The notes under the pieces: model-generated
Told to the model about the DNA's origin: nothing
The model's database searches: none
What the model saw: only the letters and a program-made list of their open reading frames with translations
Part shown: in pieces, positions 1,224-6,401 of the stretch
Numbering within the stretch: the stretch's first letter is position 1
Layout of the letters: every line of letters starts with the position of its first letter
Made by a program: the position numbers and the translations under genes
Source: a virus
Taxonomy: Duplodnaviria > Heunggongvirae > Uroviricota > Caudoviricetes
Direction: 5' to 3' (one strand)
Length of the DNA: 9,586 bases
Virus record (IMG/VR): IMGVR_UViG_3300015179_000037
Coordinates: 1-9,586 of that record

Positions 1224-2438
1224 ATGTGGTGGCCTTTTAGTCGTAAAAAAAGCGATCTGCGTAACCTGTCCATTGATGATTTTCTGGCGTTGTCTGGTGT
1301 ACCAAATACCGGATCCGGAGAATATGTTTCTGCCGGGACGGCTGAATCATTGCCTGCTGTGATGAACGCGGTTTCTGTCATCGCTGAGGCGGTGGCCACG
1401 ATGCCGTGTTACCTGTATCTGGTACGCAATGATAAGGGCAGAGAGGCGCGGGAATGGCTGGACAGTCACCCGGTAGATATTCTGCTGAATGAGCAGCCTA
1501 ATTCGTGCCTGACACCTTACCAGTTTAAACGCACAATGATGCGTCACTGCCTGCTGAACGGTAACGCCTATGCGGTTATTGAGTGGGGGCGGGACGGGCA
1601 GCCAAAATCACTTCATCCTTATGCGCCGGGGTGTGTTGTACCGGAACGCACAGGCACACACAAATACCGCTATACCATCACCGAACCCTGTACAGGAACG
1701 GTGCGCACGTATTTACAGGAAGAAGTTCTGCATCTCCGCTATGCCTCGGATGATGGCTTTCTGGGGCGTTCCCCCGTCACGATTTGCCGTGAGGCGCTGG
1801 GGCTTGGCCTTGCTCAACAGCGCCACGGAGCCAGCATTATGAAAGATGGCATGATGGCGGCAGGGATTATCACGTCAGGTGAATGGCTGGACGGCGTGAA
1901 AGGTAAACAGGCATTAGACGCACTGGAACGCTACAAGGGGGCGAAAAATGCCGGAAAAACGCCAATCCTTGAAGGGGGCATGGATTACAGGCGGCTGGGG
2001 ATGAGTAACCAGGATGCGGAATGGCTGGCCTCCCGTCGCTTCTCCATTGAAGACATCGCCAGGATGTTCAACGTGTCGCCGATTTTTCTTCAGGAATACA
2101 GCAACAGCACCTACAGCAATTTCAGTGAGGCGAGCCGCGCATTTCTGACCATGACAATGCGCCCGTGGCTGGCGAACTTCGAACAGCAAATCAAGGCCGC
2201 TTTGCTGGTGACTTCTCCCGTACCTGGTACCCGTTATCTGGTTGAGTTTGATTCAGCCGATTTACTGCGCGCCACACCCACCGAACGTTATGCCACGTAT
2301 GAGAAAGGGATTAAGAGCGGGATCATGAATCCGAACGAAGCTCGCGAACGCGAGGGTATGCCGCCGCGTGAAGGTGGTGATGAGTTCAGCCAGGCATGGA
2401 AACAGACTGTGGAAATTAAAGGGAGAAAAGATGAGTGA
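1224..2438 (+). CDS. Phage portal protein, HK97 family
   Basis: A 404-aa product whose C-terminal half (SIEDIARMFNVSPIFL...RPWLANFEQQI...RYLVEFDSADLLRATPTERYATYEKGIKSGIMNPNEAREREGMPP) is typical of HK97-type portals. The ATG at 1224 lies 1 nt after the protease stop; the track start at 1134 overlaps the protease. Confidence 0.85.
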   Translation: MWWPFSRKKSDLRNLSIDDFLALSGVPNTGSGEYVSAGTAESLPAVMNAVSVIAEAVATMPCYLYLVRNDKGREAREWLDSHPVDILLNEQPNSCLTPYQFKRTMMRHCLLNGNAYAVIEWGRDGQPKSLHPYAPGCVVPERTGTHKYRYTITEPCTGTVRTYLQEEVLHLRYASDDGFLGRSPVTICREALGLGLAQQRHGASIMKDGMMAAGIITSGEWLDGVKGKQALDALERYKGAKNAGKTPILEGGMDYRRLGMSNQDAEWLASRRFSIEDIARMFNVSPIFLQEYSNSTYSNFSEASRAFLTMTMRPWLANFEQQIKAALLVTSPVPGTRYLVEFDSADLLRATPTERYATYEKGIKSGIMNPNEAREREGMPPREGGDEFSQAWKQTVEIKGRKDE

Positions 2439-2733
2439 AGCCAGAATTACACCTGATGAAGTCAGGGCACATCTTCGACTTGATGATGATTTATCCGGTG
2501 AAGGCGAACTTCTGAAAATGTATACCGATGCGGCGCTGGAAGCCTGCCAGAAGCATATCGGGAAACGTTTTGAAGACGGGCTGGAATTTACCCCGGCAAT
2601 GCGTGTTGGTTGCCTGATGTACATCGCTTTCCTGTACGAGAACAGGGAAGCAGTTTCACCAGTGGAGCAGTCTGAACTGCCTATGGCTATTTCTGCGCTC
2701 TGGTCGGTTTATCGTGATGTGGGGGTGTACTGA
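2431..2733 (+). CDS. Head-tail connector / DNA-packaging protein, gp6-like
   Basis: The N-terminus MSEARITPDEVRAHLRLDDDLSGEGELL...AALEACQKHIGKRF fits the gp6-like connector family. GGGAG precedes the ATG at 2431, and the gene overlaps the portal stop by 8 nt. Confidence 0.75.
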   Translation: MSEARITPDEVRAHLRLDDDLSGEGELLKMYTDAALEACQKHIGKRFEDGLEFTPAMRVGCLMYIAFLYENREAVSPVEQSELPMAISALWSVYRDVGVY

Positions 2734-3173
2734 TGCCGTGGCAACCATTAAGGCGATGCACTGAGCCGGGCTGTAATAAGCGCGTGAAGTCCGGCAAGTG
2801 TGAAGAGCACAGACGGGCTGTATGGCGTGCAGAGGATGCCAGACGGGGACACCGCCGCGCGCGCGGGTATTCCCGACAGTGGGACAAATACCGCGCCCTG
2901 TACCTGAGCAAAAACCCGTTATGCGTGCGTTGTCTGGCTAAGGGGATTTATACGCCAGCTCTTGTGGTGGATCACATCATCCCCATCAATGGCGGCGGTG
3001 ATGTTCTCTTCTGGCCTGAGTGGAACCACCAGGCATTGTGCCAGACGTGCCACAACCGTAAGACGACACGGGAAGATCCAGCCACGAAAGCGAACCGTAA
3101 GGCGGGCATGTATCGCGAGCAGGAAGAACGGGCGGCACACCGTAACGACTGGATGTATGGCGATGATGACTGA
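2733..3173 (+). CDS. HNH endonuclease, terminase-associated type
   Basis: Cys pairs (CTEPGC, CVRCL, CQTCH) plus DHIIP and NH motifs are characteristic of HNH nucleases. It sits immediately upstream of the terminase genes, as HNH does in HK97-like packaging modules. Its ATG overlaps the connector stop (TGATG). Confidence 0.85.
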   Translation: MPWQPLRRCTEPGCNKRVKSGKCEEHRRAVWRAEDARRGHRRARGYSRQWDKYRALYLSKNPLCVRCLAKGIYTPALVVDHIIPINGGGDVLFWPEWNHQALCQTCHNRKTTREDPATKANRKAGMYREQEERAAHRNDWMYGDDD

Positions 3174-3461
3174 ACAGGAGCAAACCAGGCTGATACGTGG
3201 GTTGATAAGGCAGCGTGACACATGGAAGACACAGGAGACAGGGCACAAAGCCAACAGGACAGGGCGCACAAAACGCACCACAGCGAAGTGATTAACCGAC
3301 CGTGACCGCGAGGTCATGGAATGTTTTCGCAATCGCTGGTGAGGCCGTCAGAGGGGGTGGGGGTGGTTTTCAGGACGAAACCGCCCCTGCCGGACACCGA
3401 CCGCCTCCTCAAATTTTTGTGCACGGGAATTTTTTTGAAAATAATTGGGCGAAAAAAGAAC
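3174..3461 (+). promoter_or_regulatory. Candidate cos / terminase-recognition region between HNH and TerS
   Basis: This is the only sizeable non-coding gap in the module. It contains an imperfect direct repeat (ACAGGAGACAGGGCACAAA at 3231-3249 and ACAGGACAGGGCGCACAAA at 3254-3272), a G-tract GGGGGTGGGGGTGG at 3353-3366, and T/A runs just before the TerS start. Confidence 0.35.
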
Positions 3462-3818
3462 ATGGCAAGACCACCAAAAGCCCCCGCTTACCTGGATGAA
3501 ATCGCGGTCAGGCAGTGGAAGGAAAAATCGCGCCAGCTTTCCGGACGGGAAGACCTTACTCCCGCCGACTGGAGCAATCTGGAGCTGTATTGCGTTAACT
3601 ACTCCATATACCGCAAAGCCGTCGAAGACCTTGCCACGCGCGGGTTCAGCATTGTTAACAGTCAGGGCAGCGAGAGCAGAAACCCCGCCCTGAGCGCAAA
3701 GGCTGACGCTGAAAGAATAATGATCAAAATGGCTTCTTTGCTGGGTTTTGACCCGGTAAGTCGCCGCAGAAATCCACCGGAAACAGAGGAAGAGGACGAG
3801 CTTGACCGCCTGGCATGA
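3462..3818 (+). CDS. Terminase small subunit, P27 family
   Basis: The translation MARPPKAPAYLDEIAVRQWKE...LTPADWSNLELYCVNYSIYRKAVEDL fits the P27-type TerS. I chose the internal ATG at 3462 rather than the track start at 3321, because the extension runs through the G-tract and T-run region. Confidence 0.75.
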   Translation: MARPPKAPAYLDEIAVRQWKEKSRQLSGREDLTPADWSNLELYCVNYSIYRKAVEDLATRGFSIVNSQGSESRNPALSAKADAERIMIKMASLLGFDPVSRRRNPPETEEEDELDRLA

Positions 3819-5463
3819 GTACGCAGAAGGCGTAAAAAACGGCAAAATTACGGCCTGTAAACGACTGAAACAGGCCGTTAAACGGTATTTTTCTGACCTT
3901 GAAAACCCCCTTTACACGTTCGATCCGGAGGTCGTGGAGCGGTTTATTGCCTTTTCCAGGGTGTGTCCGCACGTAAAAGGCGCAATGCGCGGTAGCCCCA
4001 TTGAGCTGGAGCCGTGGCAGCAGTTCGCCTTTGCGTGCATCCTGGGCTTTAAGGTTAAGGCCACCGGACGGCGCAAATACACCAGCGCATTCATTGAAGT
4101 GCCGCGAAAAAATGCCAAATCCACGGTCGCCGCTATCCTGGCTAACTGGTTTCTGGTTATGGAAAACGGGCAGCAGGATATTTACACCGCCGCTGTGAGT
4201 CGTGATCAGGCGCGGATCGTGTTTGATGATGCGCGTCAGATGTGCCTTTTATCCCGACCGTTACGAAAGCGGGTAAATATTCAGGCACACAAGGTGATAC
4301 ACCCGAAAACCAACAGCCTGTTAAAGCCACTGGCAGCAAAAGCGGCAACCATTGAAGGTACAAACCCGAGTCTTGCCATTGTGGATGAATATCACCTGCA
4401 CCCTGACAACGGGGTTTATTCCGCGCTTGAACTGGGAATGGGGGCGCGTCCGGAGGGGCTGTTATTTGCCATCACCACATCGGGGAGCAACGTTGTTTCA
4501 GCCTGTAAACAACACTATGACTATTGCTGCCAGATACTGGATGGTGAAGAGGTGAACGAATCCATGTTCGTGCTGATTTACGAGCTGGATGATGAAAGCG
4601 AGGTTGACGATCCGGCGATGTGGATAAAGGCGAATCCCAATATCGATGTTTCCGTCGATCGTGAAAAACTGGCCTCAACCATCCAGAAAGCGCGGGGTAT
4701 TCCGTCGCAGTGGGTGGAAATGCTCACCAAGCGATTCAATATCTGGTGTCAGGGGGCTACGCCGTGGATGGGTAACGGTGCATGGGCGGAGTGCGCCGGA
4801 ACGTTCGCAGAGGCGGATTTATACGGTCAGGAGTGCTACGCGGGGCTGGACTTATCATCAACCAGCGATATTTCCAGCGTGTGCTATGCCTTTCCGGTCG
4901 GTAAAAAGATTATGCTGGTTTCCCGTCACTATCTGCCGGAATTTCAGCTACAGAACCCCGCCAATAAAAACCGCGCCATCTATCGCCAGTGGGTAAAGGC
5001 GGGCTGGATACGCACAACACCGGGTGACTGCATTGATTATGACCGTATCCGTGATGACATCATGGCGGATGCAGAGAATTTCAATATCAGGCTGGTGGGC
5101 TTCGATACATGGAACGCCACGCACCTGAGGACGCAGCTACAGGGGGCAGGATTTGAGGTGGAGCCGTTCCCGCAAACATACCTTCGTTTCAGTCCGGCGG
5201 CGAAATCGTTCGAAGTTTTTGTTAACCGGAAGGTGATTGTGCATCGTGGCGATCCGGTGCTGGCCTGGTCAATGAGTAATGTTGTGATGCAGAGTGACGC
5301 GAACGCCAATATCAAGCCGAACAAGAAAAAATCATCCAACAAGATAGACCCGAGCGTTGCGGCGCTGATGGCGTTTGGCACATTCCAGGCAGAGCATGAG
5401 GAATTTGCATTTGATATGAGCGACAGCCACAAAGAGCGGCTTGCGGCGTTTGATGGGGTATGA
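3802..5463 (+). CDS. Terminase large subunit (ATPase/nuclease)
   Basis: A 553-aa product with a Walker-A-like VPRKNAKST, a Walker-B-like LAIVDE and a C-terminal nuclease-like region. The start appears to be TTG at 3802, overlapping the TerS stop. Confidence 0.9.
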   Translation: MTAWHEYAEGVKNGKITACKRLKQAVKRYFSDLENPLYTFDPEVVERFIAFSRVCPHVKGAMRGSPIELEPWQQFAFACILGFKVKATGRRKYTSAFIEVPRKNAKSTVAAILANWFLVMENGQQDIYTAAVSRDQARIVFDDARQMCLLSRPLRKRVNIQAHKVIHPKTNSLLKPLAAKAATIEGTNPSLAIVDEYHLHPDNGVYSALELGMGARPEGLLFAITTSGSNVVSACKQHYDYCCQILDGEEVNESMFVLIYELDDESEVDDPAMWIKANPNIDVSVDREKLASTIQKARGIPSQWVEMLTKRFNIWCQGATPWMGNGAWAECAGTFAEADLYGQECYAGLDLSSTSDISSVCYAFPVGKKIMLVSRHYLPEFQLQNPANKNRAIYRQWVKAGWIRTTPGDCIDYDRIRDDIMADAENFNIRLVGFDTWNATHLRTQLQGAGFEVEPFPQTYLRFSPAAKSFEVFVNRKVIVHRGDPVLAWSMSNVVMQSDANANIKPNKKKSSNKIDPSVAALMAFGTFQAEHEEFAFDMSDSHKERLAAFDGV

Positions 5464-5753
5464 CGAGAATGAGCGAAACCGAACTACTAAAAATAATCCG
5501 CCGCGTTACCGGAATCAGCCAGGAAGCAGGCAAACAGGAGGCCACGCAGCCGGACAGCGTGATAGCCAAAAATTACGCGCGTGTGGTGGCTGAGGTGATG
5601 CGCCGTGACGGTATCGAGCTTAACGGCGTGGATATACGCAATATACGCACCAGAGTTCTGGAGTTGTTGTCATATCGTCGCCGCGTGGAGATGTACCAGG
5701 AGAAAGAAAAAATTACTTACCACTGGAAGAAGCCGGAGCGGTTGCGGCGGTAA
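5460..5753 (+). CDS. Hypothetical 97-aa basic protein, translationally coupled to TerL; function unknown
   Basis: Its ATG overlaps the TerL stop (GTATGA). I recognise no family from the sequence (MTRMSETELLKIIRRVTGISQEAGKQ...RRRVEMYQEKEKITYHWKKPERLRR). It is the last ORF before the non-coding island end. Confidence 0.5.
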   Translation: MTRMSETELLKIIRRVTGISQEAGKQEATQPDSVIAKNYARVVAEVMRRDGIELNGVDIRNIRTRVLELLSYRRRVEMYQEKEKITYHWKKPERLRR

Positions 5754-6046
5754 CTGGTTGATATTCCCGACGTTCCAAAAATGGGTTGGCTACACCCCTC
5801 ACAACTACGACATTTTCGCAGTTTAATTAATGGTCAGTTTAATCGCTAACCCGCTGATATTTTCGGAAACCTCAATTTGAGGAGACCGGAACGTCTACAT
5901 GGCTGCATCACCATAACGATGATTTAGCCCACCAGCAACCATAACGATTTCCGTTACAGTTGATGTGCTTTTTTGCTGGTAAGGCCTAACCCGTTGATTC
6001 TTCCACAATCCCCCATTGGGGGAGGCTGGGCGGCCTGCTGTGGGCT

Positions 6047-6065
6047 TTTCCACCATTGGTGGAAA
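6047..6065. repeat. Perfect 19-bp palindrome TTTCCACCATTGGTGGAAA, sharing a CCATTGG core with the 13-bp palindrome CCCCCATTGGGGG at 6010-6022
   Basis: Read directly from the sequence; the two palindromes are about 25 bp apart edge to edge. Confidence 0.9.
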
Positions 6066-6284
6066 GGTGCAGATCTGGATCATCATTACGGTGATCAAGG
6101 GTATGTAAAACCCACCAGCCTGATTGACATTTAACCGGAAAAAAGCCAGGTAGCCCCGTTATGGGGATCCCCATATCGACATTAACGCCCCTCATGAATT
6201 GGCGTGCTTCTCCCTGGAAAGATGACCCGCCTGTATATTTCTTGTGTCTATTTGTTCCACGTTGTTTCATACAGTGCACCGAAC

Positions 6285-6308
6285 GGTGTAGTTAATGGTG
6301 TAGTTAAT
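6285..6308. repeat. Perfect tandem duplication, 2 x 12 bp (GGTGTAGTTAAT)
   Basis: Read directly from the sequence; it lies close to the inferred island/chromosome junction. Confidence 0.9.
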
Positions 6309-6352
6309 TTGCGATTTTTGGCACTTCTTGCAGTGTATATTGTTTAATTAAA

Positions 6353-6391
6353 TCAATGCGTTATTGAAAATAAGTTATAGATATATCCCAT
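6353..6391 (-). pseudogene. allE: Probable orphaned 5' end of allE (ylbA): start codon and RBS retained after allC, gene body replaced by the insertion
   Basis: On the minus strand the allC stop is followed by AGGAG and, 10 nt later, ATG GGA TAT, which then runs into a stop after 12 codons (MGYIYNLFSITH*). From memory, E. coli AllE begins MGY and starts a few bp after allC. Confidence 0.4.
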
Positions 6392-6401
6392 TTATGACTC
6401 C

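What the first reader, a model, noticed from the sequence alone, without database searches (positions are those of the whole stretch)
5460..5753. Unrecognised 97-aa protein translationally coupled to the large terminase, last gene of the island
Its start overlaps the TerL stop, implying co-expression with the packaging genes. In HK97-like phages TerL is followed by portal, so this position is unusual, and the product has no motif I can place. Terminal positions of satellites and prophages are known to carry accessory cargo such as interference or anti-phage factors, so a small novel protein here is a reasonable candidate for such a role.
Basis: inference. Interest (0 to 1): 0.45.

Follow-up and report, generated by a model that had tools for sequence, protein, structure and literature searches.

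The report
Conserved small end gene of phage satellites
The 97-codon reading frame after the large terminase is a real, selected gene found at the right end of many E. coli phage satellites (PICIs), but it is already widespread in databases, absent from true phages, dispensable for satellite transfer in published work, and still has no known function.

Summary
The ORF (5460-5753) exists and is a real gene. It matches phrog_1561 (unknown function) over its full length and evolves under purifying selection (dN/dS 0.13-0.40). Homologues occur in 1615 of 5426 complete E. coli genomes.

The window is a capsid-forming PICI (cf-PICI) inserted into the 5' end of allE. In this element type TerL is normally the last packaging gene, so the position is not unusual. 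The conserved start is probably ATG 5469, five bases after the TerL stop, not the overlapping ATG 5460.

The same gene ends PICIs with four different morphogenetic layouts, including the prototypes EcCICFT073 and EcCIEDL933. It is missing from 50,697 phage genomes. It is also missing from a cf-PICI lineage whose packaging module is 93-99.6% identical, where homology stops exactly at its start codon. It therefore belongs to an exchangeable right-end module, not to the packaging machinery.

Published constructs, mapped here by their primers, show two things. Overexpression does not block lambda. An EcCICFT073 derivative lacking the gene is the transfer-competent marked island.

No sequence or fold homology gives a function. 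The model is a basic helical hairpin with an invariant C-terminal Y-x-WKKPERLRR. My inference is a dispensable late-phase adaptor acting on a conserved host or island partner. Interest is low to moderate.

The parts
5469..5753 (+). Most likely coding sequence (94 aa) of the phrog_1561-family protein. The longest ORF starts at 5460 (97 aa).
   Evidence: (RefSeq CDS L001 16170-16454 corresponds to window 5469-5753).
5460..5463 (+). ATGA overlap of the upstream in-frame ATG with the TerL stop codon. Probably not the functional start.
   Evidence: L049 has ATA here but keeps ATG 5469. The EDL933-type junction has a 13-nt gap.
3802..5463 (+). Large terminase of the cf-PICI, the last gene of the packaging module.
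   Evidence: Pfam TerL_ATPase and TerL_nuclease; PHROG 9.
5718..5750 (+). Codons for the invariant C-terminal motif Y-x-W-K-K-P-E-R-L-R-R. They are conserved at protein level while synonymous sites vary.
   Evidence: (TTG/CTG/TTA, CGG/CGA/CGT, AAG/AAA, CCG/CCA).
5754..6373 (.). Non-coding right arm of the island. It holds TAACCCGYTGAT-like boxes (about 5750, 5846, 5986), hairpins or palindromes at 6009-6023 and 6049-6063, the perfect palindrome TATGGGGATCCCCATA at 6160-6175, and tandem GGTGTAGTTAAT x2 at 6285-6308 (putative integrase arm-type sites).
   Evidence: The tandem repeat also lies just left of int in EcCIEDL933 (L005 284-307).
6374..6395 (.). attR core: a 22-bp direct repeat of the sequence at attL, derived from the 5' end of allE.
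   Evidence: BLAST of the K-12 allE/allC junction against the window and L001.

Best explanation
Shown. The ORF is a genuine protein-coding gene of the narrow, satellite-specific family phrog_1561, found in Escherichia, Shigella, Salmonella and Citrobacter. It is the terminal, co-oriented gene of the late operon, and it forms part of an exchangeable right-end module (gene plus att arm) of enterobacterial phage-inducible chromosomal islands. Here the island is a capsid-forming PICI inserted in allE. The gene is not part of the capsid or packaging machinery and is not needed for helper-dependent transfer.

Modelled. The product is a small basic protein (pI about 10). It has an N-terminal helix, a disordered linker, a confident helical hairpin (residues 32-86), and an invariant tail Y-x-WKKPERLRR.

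Inferred. The tail is invariant across islands that use different helpers, capsids, terminases, replicases and integration sites. The partner is therefore most likely something common to all of them: a host factor (about 0.25), or a component of the island backbone such as Int, AlpA or their DNA or RNA (about 0.2), rather than a helper-specific protein. I propose that it is made late after induction and acts as a dispensable adaptor that tunes the induced state, for example late transcription or host takeover. By position and dispensability it resembles Psu, the last gene of the P4 late operon. The identity and status part of this statement is about 0.9 likely. The 'conserved host or backbone partner' class is about 0.45 likely. 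Any one specific target is at most 0.25 likely. The overall confidence of 0.5 is a blend of these.
For: - Real gene: phrog_1561 at E = 3e-49 over the full length. dN/dS is 0.13-0.40 with synonymous variation inside the invariant tail. There are 928 database relatives.
- Satellite-specific and narrow: no tblastn hit in 50,697 phage genomes. Only 37 clusters at 50% identity among 1.8 billion representatives. The divergent branch is in Citrobacter.
- Terminal gene in every context that carries it: cf-PICIs, lambda-type PICIs including EcCICFT073, protease-capsid-fusion PICIs, helper-embedded PICIs, and Citrobacter.
- Not packaging machinery: 20 of 62 IMG/VR loci whose packaging DNA is 93-99.6% identical to the window lack it, with the homology break exactly at window 5471.
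- Dispensable: primer mapping shows that EcCICFT073 c1504-07::cat removes L006 3104-4001, which includes the gene. That island is the one used for transfer assays. The EcCIEDL933 marker sits at genes 1795-1796, and 1795 is the homologue.
- Basic charge.
Against: No experiment or homology points to any partner. The host-or-backbone argument rests only on the conservation pattern. Invariance of the tail could equally reflect self-assembly or nucleic-acid binding. The AlphaFold model comes from a shallow alignment (35 sequences, pTM 0.51). The gene is missing from one successful cf-PICI lineage, so whatever it does is replaceable. The published deletion also removed cos2 and the right-arm repeats and was never compared with an isogenic intact island, so a quantitative contribution to transfer cannot be excluded. 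Whether '1795-1796::cat' replaces gene 1795 or merely abuts it is not stated in the texts I could read.
Confidence: 0.5

Rival explanations
1. Helper interference or anti-phage cargo: the protein blocks reproduction of helper or competing phages.
For: It lies in the region after the packaging operon, which 10.1101/2025.02.11.637232 calls variable and expects to hold immune systems. It is replaceable at a sharp junction and dispensable for transfer.
Against: The pBAD18 clone covering the whole EcCICFT073 homologue (L006 3317-3690) did not reduce lambda plaquing, whereas c1503/rppA did. Deleting rppA alone restored lambda plaquing almost fully. There is no PADLOC match. One gene occupying the same slot in about 30% of E. 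coli genomes and across four PICI architectures is unlike the high turnover of defence cargo. The invariant tail does not fit diverse phage targets.
Confidence: 0.15
2. Packaging or virion accessory: a small chaperone that helps terminase, cos recognition or head completion, as lambda gpFI does.
For: It always follows the terminase or Rpp gene, or the capsid gene, in the late operon. It is tightly spaced after TerL, TerS or DUF1441 in several islands. It lies next to the inverted second cos site in lambda-type PICIs.
Against: It is absent from cf-PICIs with 93-99.6% identical packaging modules. It is present in L012, which has no terminase-like gene. It is shared by islands using three unrelated packaging strategies. 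It is deleted in a transfer-competent EcCICFT073 derivative. It has no relative in any phage.
Confidence: 0.1
3. Regulator of integration, excision or the att arm: a basic DNA- or RNA-binding protein acting on the repeated boxes, hairpins and palindrome between the gene and attR. In the excised circle these lie just upstream of int.
For: The gene is physically linked to the att arm. The first TAACNNG-TGAT box overlaps its stop codon. The protein is basic. The right arm is highly conserved, at 92-97% between islands whose integrases are 93% identical.
Against: TAACCCGC repeats are also present in the L019-type right end, which lacks the gene. L003 and L012 carry the gene without the boxes or the palindrome. 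The c1504-07 deletion removes both the gene and the motifs, yet still gives stable transductants, which need integration. No DNA-binding fold was recognised.
Confidence: 0.2
4. Non-functional or selfish remnant: a conserved reading frame that overlies a cis-acting DNA site.
For: It is dispensable in the laboratory and has no known domain.
Against: dN/dS is 0.13-0.40. Synonymous changes occur inside the invariant motif. A 47%-identical Citrobacter homologue and a 63-aa minimal form keep the same core.
Confidence: 0.03

Closest known systems
phrog_1561 (PHROGs v4, unknown function), including EcCICFT073 'c1505' and EcCIEDL933 gene 1795 (RefSeq WP_000133413.1 and WP_000133425.1)
   Same: Full-length match at E = 3e-49 and 72-80% amino-acid identity. 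Same position as the last gene before attR. Same invariant C-terminus.
   Different: In the window the gene abuts TerL, and the longest ORF adds three N-terminal codons. In EcCICFT073 it lies 280 nt after rppA, behind a second, inverted cos site.
Capsid-forming PICIs (EcCIEDL933; Alqurainy et al., bioRxiv 10.1101/2022.09.08.507074)
   Same: The element around the gene has int-alpA-primase, then capsid-protease-portal-adaptor-HNH-TerS-TerL. It has no tail or lysis genes and is 14.9 kb long.
   Different: The window island lacks the head-closure (Phage_HCP) gene that EcCIEDL933 has between portal and adaptor. It is integrated in allE rather than between roxA and phoQ.
Psu of satellite phage P4 (last gene of the sid-delta-psu late operon; Rho antagonist and capsid decoration protein). 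This comparison rests on my own knowledge.
   Same: Satellite-specific, terminal gene of the late operon, all-helical, dispensable for satellite propagation.
RppA/Rpp and SaPI Ppi (satellite proteins that redirect or block helper packaging)
   Same: Small satellite-encoded late proteins encoded next to cos or terminase genes.
   Different: Rpp is a TerS-like DNA-binding protein that blocks lambda when expressed alone. The homologue of this ORF did not block lambda in the same experiment (PMC6739421). There is no sequence relationship.

Membership tests
phrog_1561 (uncharacterised satellite/prophage protein family) | Significant full-length match to the family profile | tested here: met
   E = 3.3e-49, residues 4-97 against profile positions 1-93 of 93.
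phrog_1561 (uncharacterised satellite/prophage protein family) | Conserved core: helical hairpin plus C-terminal Y-x-W-[KR]-K-P-[ED]-x-L-R-R | tested here: met
   Invariant columns in alignments A1 and A2. The core is kept in the 47%-identical Citrobacter form and in the 63-aa L072 form.
Capsid-forming PICI (the element that carries the gene) | int, alpA and a replication module at the left; capsid-protease-portal-connector-HNH-TerS-TerL at the right; no tail or lysis genes; 10-18 kb | tested here: met
   L001 annotation and window Pfam hits. The att repeats delimit 14.9 kb. Criteria as listed in 10.1101/2025.02.11.637232. Only one of the two connector genes is present.
Phage head-tail adaptor / head-closure proteins (Phage_connect_1, Phage_HCP) | Match to the Pfam or PHROG connector models, or a connector-like fold | tested here: not met
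Known anti-phage defence proteins (PADLOC-DB 2.0) | Match to a defence-system model | tested here: not met
   No family at E up to 1 for the window protein or for the Citrobacter homologue.
Satellite interference proteins (Rpp/Ppi type) | Expression alone blocks helper plaque formation | not testable with these tools
   Published result for the EcCICFT073 homologue: only c1503 of the clones c1499-c1507 reduced lambda plaquing. The clone named c1505 spans the whole gene by my primer mapping. Other phages were not tested.
Excisionase / AlpA-type recombination directionality factors | Winged-helix or MerR-like DNA-binding domain (Pfam Phage_AlpA, Excisionase-like) | tested here: not met
   No Pfam or NCBIfam hit. 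The predicted fold is a helical hairpin. The island has its own alpA at the left end.
P4 Psu-like polarity suppressors | Sequence or fold similarity to Psu; binding to Rho | tested here: not met

The most novel reading that the evidence does not exclude
The phrog_1561 protein is a satellite-specific host-takeover factor. Its invariant C-terminal WKKPERLRR tail docks on a conserved host machine (for example Rho, NusG or RNA polymerase, or a protease or defence component). This improves the satellite's late expression or survival in natural hosts. That would explain why it is kept at the right end of most enterobacterial PICIs even though laboratory transfer does not need it.
Probability: 0.2. 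Interest if true: 0.6.

Novelty: already known. Interest (0 to 1): 0.3.

Why it matters
The gene marks the right end of a large share of enterobacterial PICIs. It is present in about 30% of complete E. coli genomes and in both experimental prototypes, EcCICFT073 and EcCIEDL933, yet no function has been assigned. In both prototypes the resistance marker was placed in or across it, so its contribution has never been measured. If it acts on a host factor, it would be a general satellite tool independent of the helper phage. It would also be a useful hallmark for finding PICIs. For this particular window nothing new is present: identical DNA is already in RefSeq.

Tried and rejected
- Pfam, NCBIfam and PADLOC scans gave no hit.
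- A PDB profile search gave only noise, with E at least 0.8.
- tblastn of the whole protein and of the C-terminal 24 residues against 50,697 phage genomes gave no match. I therefore dropped the idea that the tail mimics a helper-protein C-terminus.
- Two large eukaryote-like repeat proteins in the representative search (P0134, P0149) are spurious repeat matches.
- Rfam found nothing relevant in the window.
- Consensus promoter and terminator scans did not exceed the shuffled controls.
- I first mapped 'hypothetical gene 1792' of EcCIEDL933 to the head-closure gene. The locus-tag table in PMC11125564 corrected this: 1792 is the 60-aa ORF between HNH and TerS, and the homologue of this ORF is 1795.
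- I considered that the ORF product binds the TAACCCG boxes and hairpins downstream. I rejected this as the leading idea for two reasons: the boxes persist where the gene is absent (L019), and the gene persists where the boxes are absent (L003, L012).
- The genome-contig scan returned only one locus, in Shigella. This reflects the one-genome-per-species design and the exact-pattern search, so it says little about true breadth.

Full report
**What the window is.**
Pfam and PHROG scans give the following gene order on the + strand:
- the C-terminal part of an HK97-type capsid gene;
- a prohead protease;
- a portal;
- a gp6-like head-tail adaptor;
- an HNH endonuclease;
- a P27-family small terminase;
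- a large terminase (3802-5463);
- the ORF in question.

allC and allD follow on the other strand.

The 99.7%-identical region of E. coli AST19 shows the whole element. It has a tyrosine integrase, an AlpA-type regulator, an Icd-like protein, a primase, SSB and ProQ. Then comes the packaging block. There are no tail or lysis genes.

I compared the element with the uninterrupted allE/allC junction of K-12. This gives a 22-bp direct repeat at both ends (window 6374-6395 is attR) and an element of 14.9 kb inserted in the 5' end of allE.

This is a capsid-forming PICI as defined by Alqurainy et al. (10.1101/2022.09.08.507074) and He et al. (10.1101/2025.02.11.637232). In their proteobacterial members the order capsid-protease-portal-connectors-hnh-terS-terL is the rule. 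A gene after TerL is therefore simply the first thing beyond the packaging module. It is not an anomaly relative to HK97.

**The observation.**
The 97-codon ORF is there, and its ATG overlaps the TerL stop. The conserved start is the next ATG, at 5469:
- RefSeq annotates 94 aa from it.
- Every homologue begins M-[TS]-E-x-E at that position.
- One cf-PICI has ATA in place of the upstream ATG but keeps the second one.

In the other main cf-PICI junction type the gene starts 13 nt after a TAA stop. In lambda-type PICIs it starts 250-280 nt after the previous gene. Close spacing, and possibly coupling, is a feature of this island type and not of the family.

**It is a real gene.**
- It matches phrog_1561 (unknown function) over its full length at E = 3e-49.
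- It has 928 relatives in the 5.8-billion-protein collection.
- Six homologues from different islands give dN/dS of 0.13-0.40.
- Codons of the invariant C-terminus vary synonymously, so the conservation is at protein level and not due to a DNA site.

**Distribution.**
blastn finds the gene in 1615 of 5426 complete E. coli genomes, with up to six copies per genome.

tblastn finds nothing in 50,697 deposited phage genomes.

An exhaustive HMMER pass over 1.8 billion cluster representatives finds only 37 clusters. Nearly all are fragments or chimeras of the same family. One divergent branch (45% identity) is in Citrobacter. Two large repeat proteins among the hits are spurious.

I read the context in more than fifteen loci. 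In every locus that carries the gene, it is the last called gene, co-oriented with the late operon. It is followed by 0.36-1.2 kb of non-coding DNA and then the host or prophage flank. The islands fall into these groups:
- cf-PICIs at allE, roxA/phoQ (EcCIEDL933 itself), tqsA, clpS and bioD;
- lambda-type PICIs with capsid, decoration and Rpp or TerS genes, including EcCICFT073;
- PICIs with a protease-capsid fusion, with or without a DUF1441 small terminase;
- helper-embedded PICIs inside a prophage portal or gpA gene;
- a Citrobacter PICI next to rpoD.

**It is not part of the packaging module.**
I fetched 80 IMG/VR loci whose TerL is 92-100% identical to the window's. Of the 62 with enough downstream sequence:
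- 40 have the full gene;
- 2 have variants, namely a 63-aa minimal form lacking the N-terminal helix and a form with a duplicated tail;
- 20 lack it.

In those 20, the DNA is 93-99.6% identical to the window across the packaging genes. Homology ends exactly at window 5471, the third base of the conserved start codon.

In the representative I read (L019), about 520 bp follow, and then the 3' half of a phage terL, a portal and a protease. These are cf-PICIs embedded in the terL gene of an HK97-like prophage. Their right end carries the doubled TGTATTGC motif reported for helper-embedded PICIs (PMC10111431).

The gene therefore belongs to an exchangeable right-end module.

**Published genetics, mapped here.**
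The supplement of Fillol-Salom et al. 2019 (PMC6739421) lists pBAD18 clones of c1499-c1507 of EcCICFT073 and a marked island 'c1504-07::cat'.

I mapped the primers on CFT073. This gave two results:
- The 'c1505' clone (L006 3317-3690) contains the whole homologue (3374-3655) in the forward orientation.
- The cat replacement removes 3104-4001. That segment holds the second cos site, the gene, and the right-arm repeats and palindrome.

The paper states that only c1503 (rppA) reduced lambda plaquing. It uses the 'EcCICFT073 cat' island for its transfer assays.

For EcCIEDL933, the locus-tag table of PMC11125564 fixes the capsid gene as EDL933_1786. Combined with the RefSeq gene order, this gives:
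- 'hypothetical gene 1792', whose mutation strongly reduced transfer, is the 60-aa ORF between HNH and TerS;
- the homologue of the present ORF is 1795.

The marked island used in both cf-PICI papers is 'EcCIEDL933 1795-1796::cat'. Whether that deletes 1795 or only abuts it is not stated in the texts available to me.

In summary, the gene is dispensable for induction, packaging, transfer and establishment of EcCICFT073. It does not interfere with lambda. It was not treated as part of the cf-PICI packaging module.

**The protein.**
It is basic (pI 10.2; 15 Arg, 7 Lys).

AlphaFold2, run on 35 sequences that include the Citrobacter branch, gives mean pLDDT 76.6. The model has these parts:
- a helix at residues 6-17;
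- a disordered linker at 18-31;
- a confident hairpin of helices 32-49 and 56-86 (pLDDT above 90 for residues 31-70);
- a tail in which Y87 and W89 precede a short helix.

Invariant positions across the A1 alignment, which includes the Citrobacter branch, are Y39, V42, V43, G51, N55, D58, I62, R63, R65, L70, Y87, W89, K90, P92 and E93-R97.

**Most likely mode of action (inference).**
The gene is expressed at the end of the late operon. It is specific to satellites and is replaceable. It keeps an invariant tail across islands that differ in helper type, capsid source, terminase strategy, replicase and integration site.

That pattern argues for a partner common to all of them: a host factor or a backbone component. 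It argues against a helper-specific target or a structural role.

I therefore favour a small, dispensable late-phase adaptor. The nearest analogy, by position and dispensability only, is P4 Psu. This is weakly supported.

The rivals are these:
- An att-arm or integration regulator (0.2). The TAACCCG boxes persist without the gene and the gene persists without the boxes, which weakens this idea.
- Anti-phage or interference cargo (0.15). The lambda test was negative and no PADLOC model matches.
- A packaging accessory (0.1). Its absence from near-identical packaging modules weakens this.

**Verdict.**
It is wrong that its position or novelty is unusual. The interference idea has no support so far. 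The gene is already abundant in databases and is present in the two laboratory prototypes, so this window adds nothing new. The open question is the function of the family.

Noticed in passing
L019-L068 (20 IMG/VR loci), e.g. L019 5663-8880; breakpoint at window 5471: A lineage of cf-PICIs whose packaging genes are 93-99.6% identical to the window is embedded in the terL gene of an HK97-like prophage. In L019, the one I read, a truncated TerL nuclease domain, a portal and a protease follow. The right end carries the doubled TGTATTGC motif of helper-embedded PICIs and 3+3 inverted GCGGGTTA/TAACCCGC repeats. I have not seen helper-embedded capsid-forming PICIs described in the papers I read.
   Followed up: partly
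window 5754-6373: The non-coding right arm is more conserved between islands (92-97%) than the ORF (about 81% nt). It contains TAACCCGYTGAT-like boxes (about 5750, 5846, 5986) and hairpins TCCCCCATTGGGGGA (6009) and TCCACCATTGGTGGA (6049), which differ by a compensatory change. It also holds a perfect 16-bp palindrome TATGGGGATCCCCATA (6160) that is kept in Citrobacter, and tandem GGTGTAGTTAAT x2 (6285-6308). The tandem repeat also lies just left of int in EcCIEDL933, so these are probably integrase arm-type sites.
   Followed up: partly
window 2368-2733, between portal and HNH: This island has only the gp6-like adaptor. The head-closure gene (Phage_HCP, 112 aa) that EcCIEDL933 carries between portal and adaptor is missing. 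The same HCP-less layout occurs in many strains (L014-L016). He et al. report that adaptor and connector together set tail specificity.
   Followed up: partly
window about 3157-3342 (RefSeq CDS L001 13858-14043), between HNH and TerS: A 61-aa ORF overlaps the HNH end in the presumed cos region. It corresponds to EcCIEDL933 'hypothetical gene 1792', the one packaging-module mutant whose transfer was severely reduced rather than abolished.
   Followed up: partly
window 6374-6395 and L001 2163-2184; K-12 L008 6030-6051: The island is inserted in the first codons of allE. It separates allE from allC by 15 kb and so from the upstream genes it is co-oriented with. RefSeq annotates a shorter allE in the lysogen.
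   Followed up: no
L006 2559 (+) and 3298 (-); L002 8059 (+) and 8926 (-): In lambda-type PICIs two exact lambda cosN sequences (GGGCGGCGACCT) flank the rppA or terS gene in inverted orientation. The second lies about 65 bp upstream of the homologue of this ORF.
   Followed up: partly
L001 2353-3582 versus L005 330-1559: The integrases of the allE-inserted island and of EcCIEDL933 (roxA/phoQ site) are 93% identical although they use different chromosomal sites. The differences cluster around residues 121-150.
   Followed up: no
window 3321-3818: The longest TerS ORF is 165 aa, but RefSeq annotates 118 aa (start near 3462). The Pfam Terminase_4 match covers only residues 64-157 of the long form. 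The first 40 residues of the long form match a separate PHROG of unknown function (phrog_32378).
   Followed up: no
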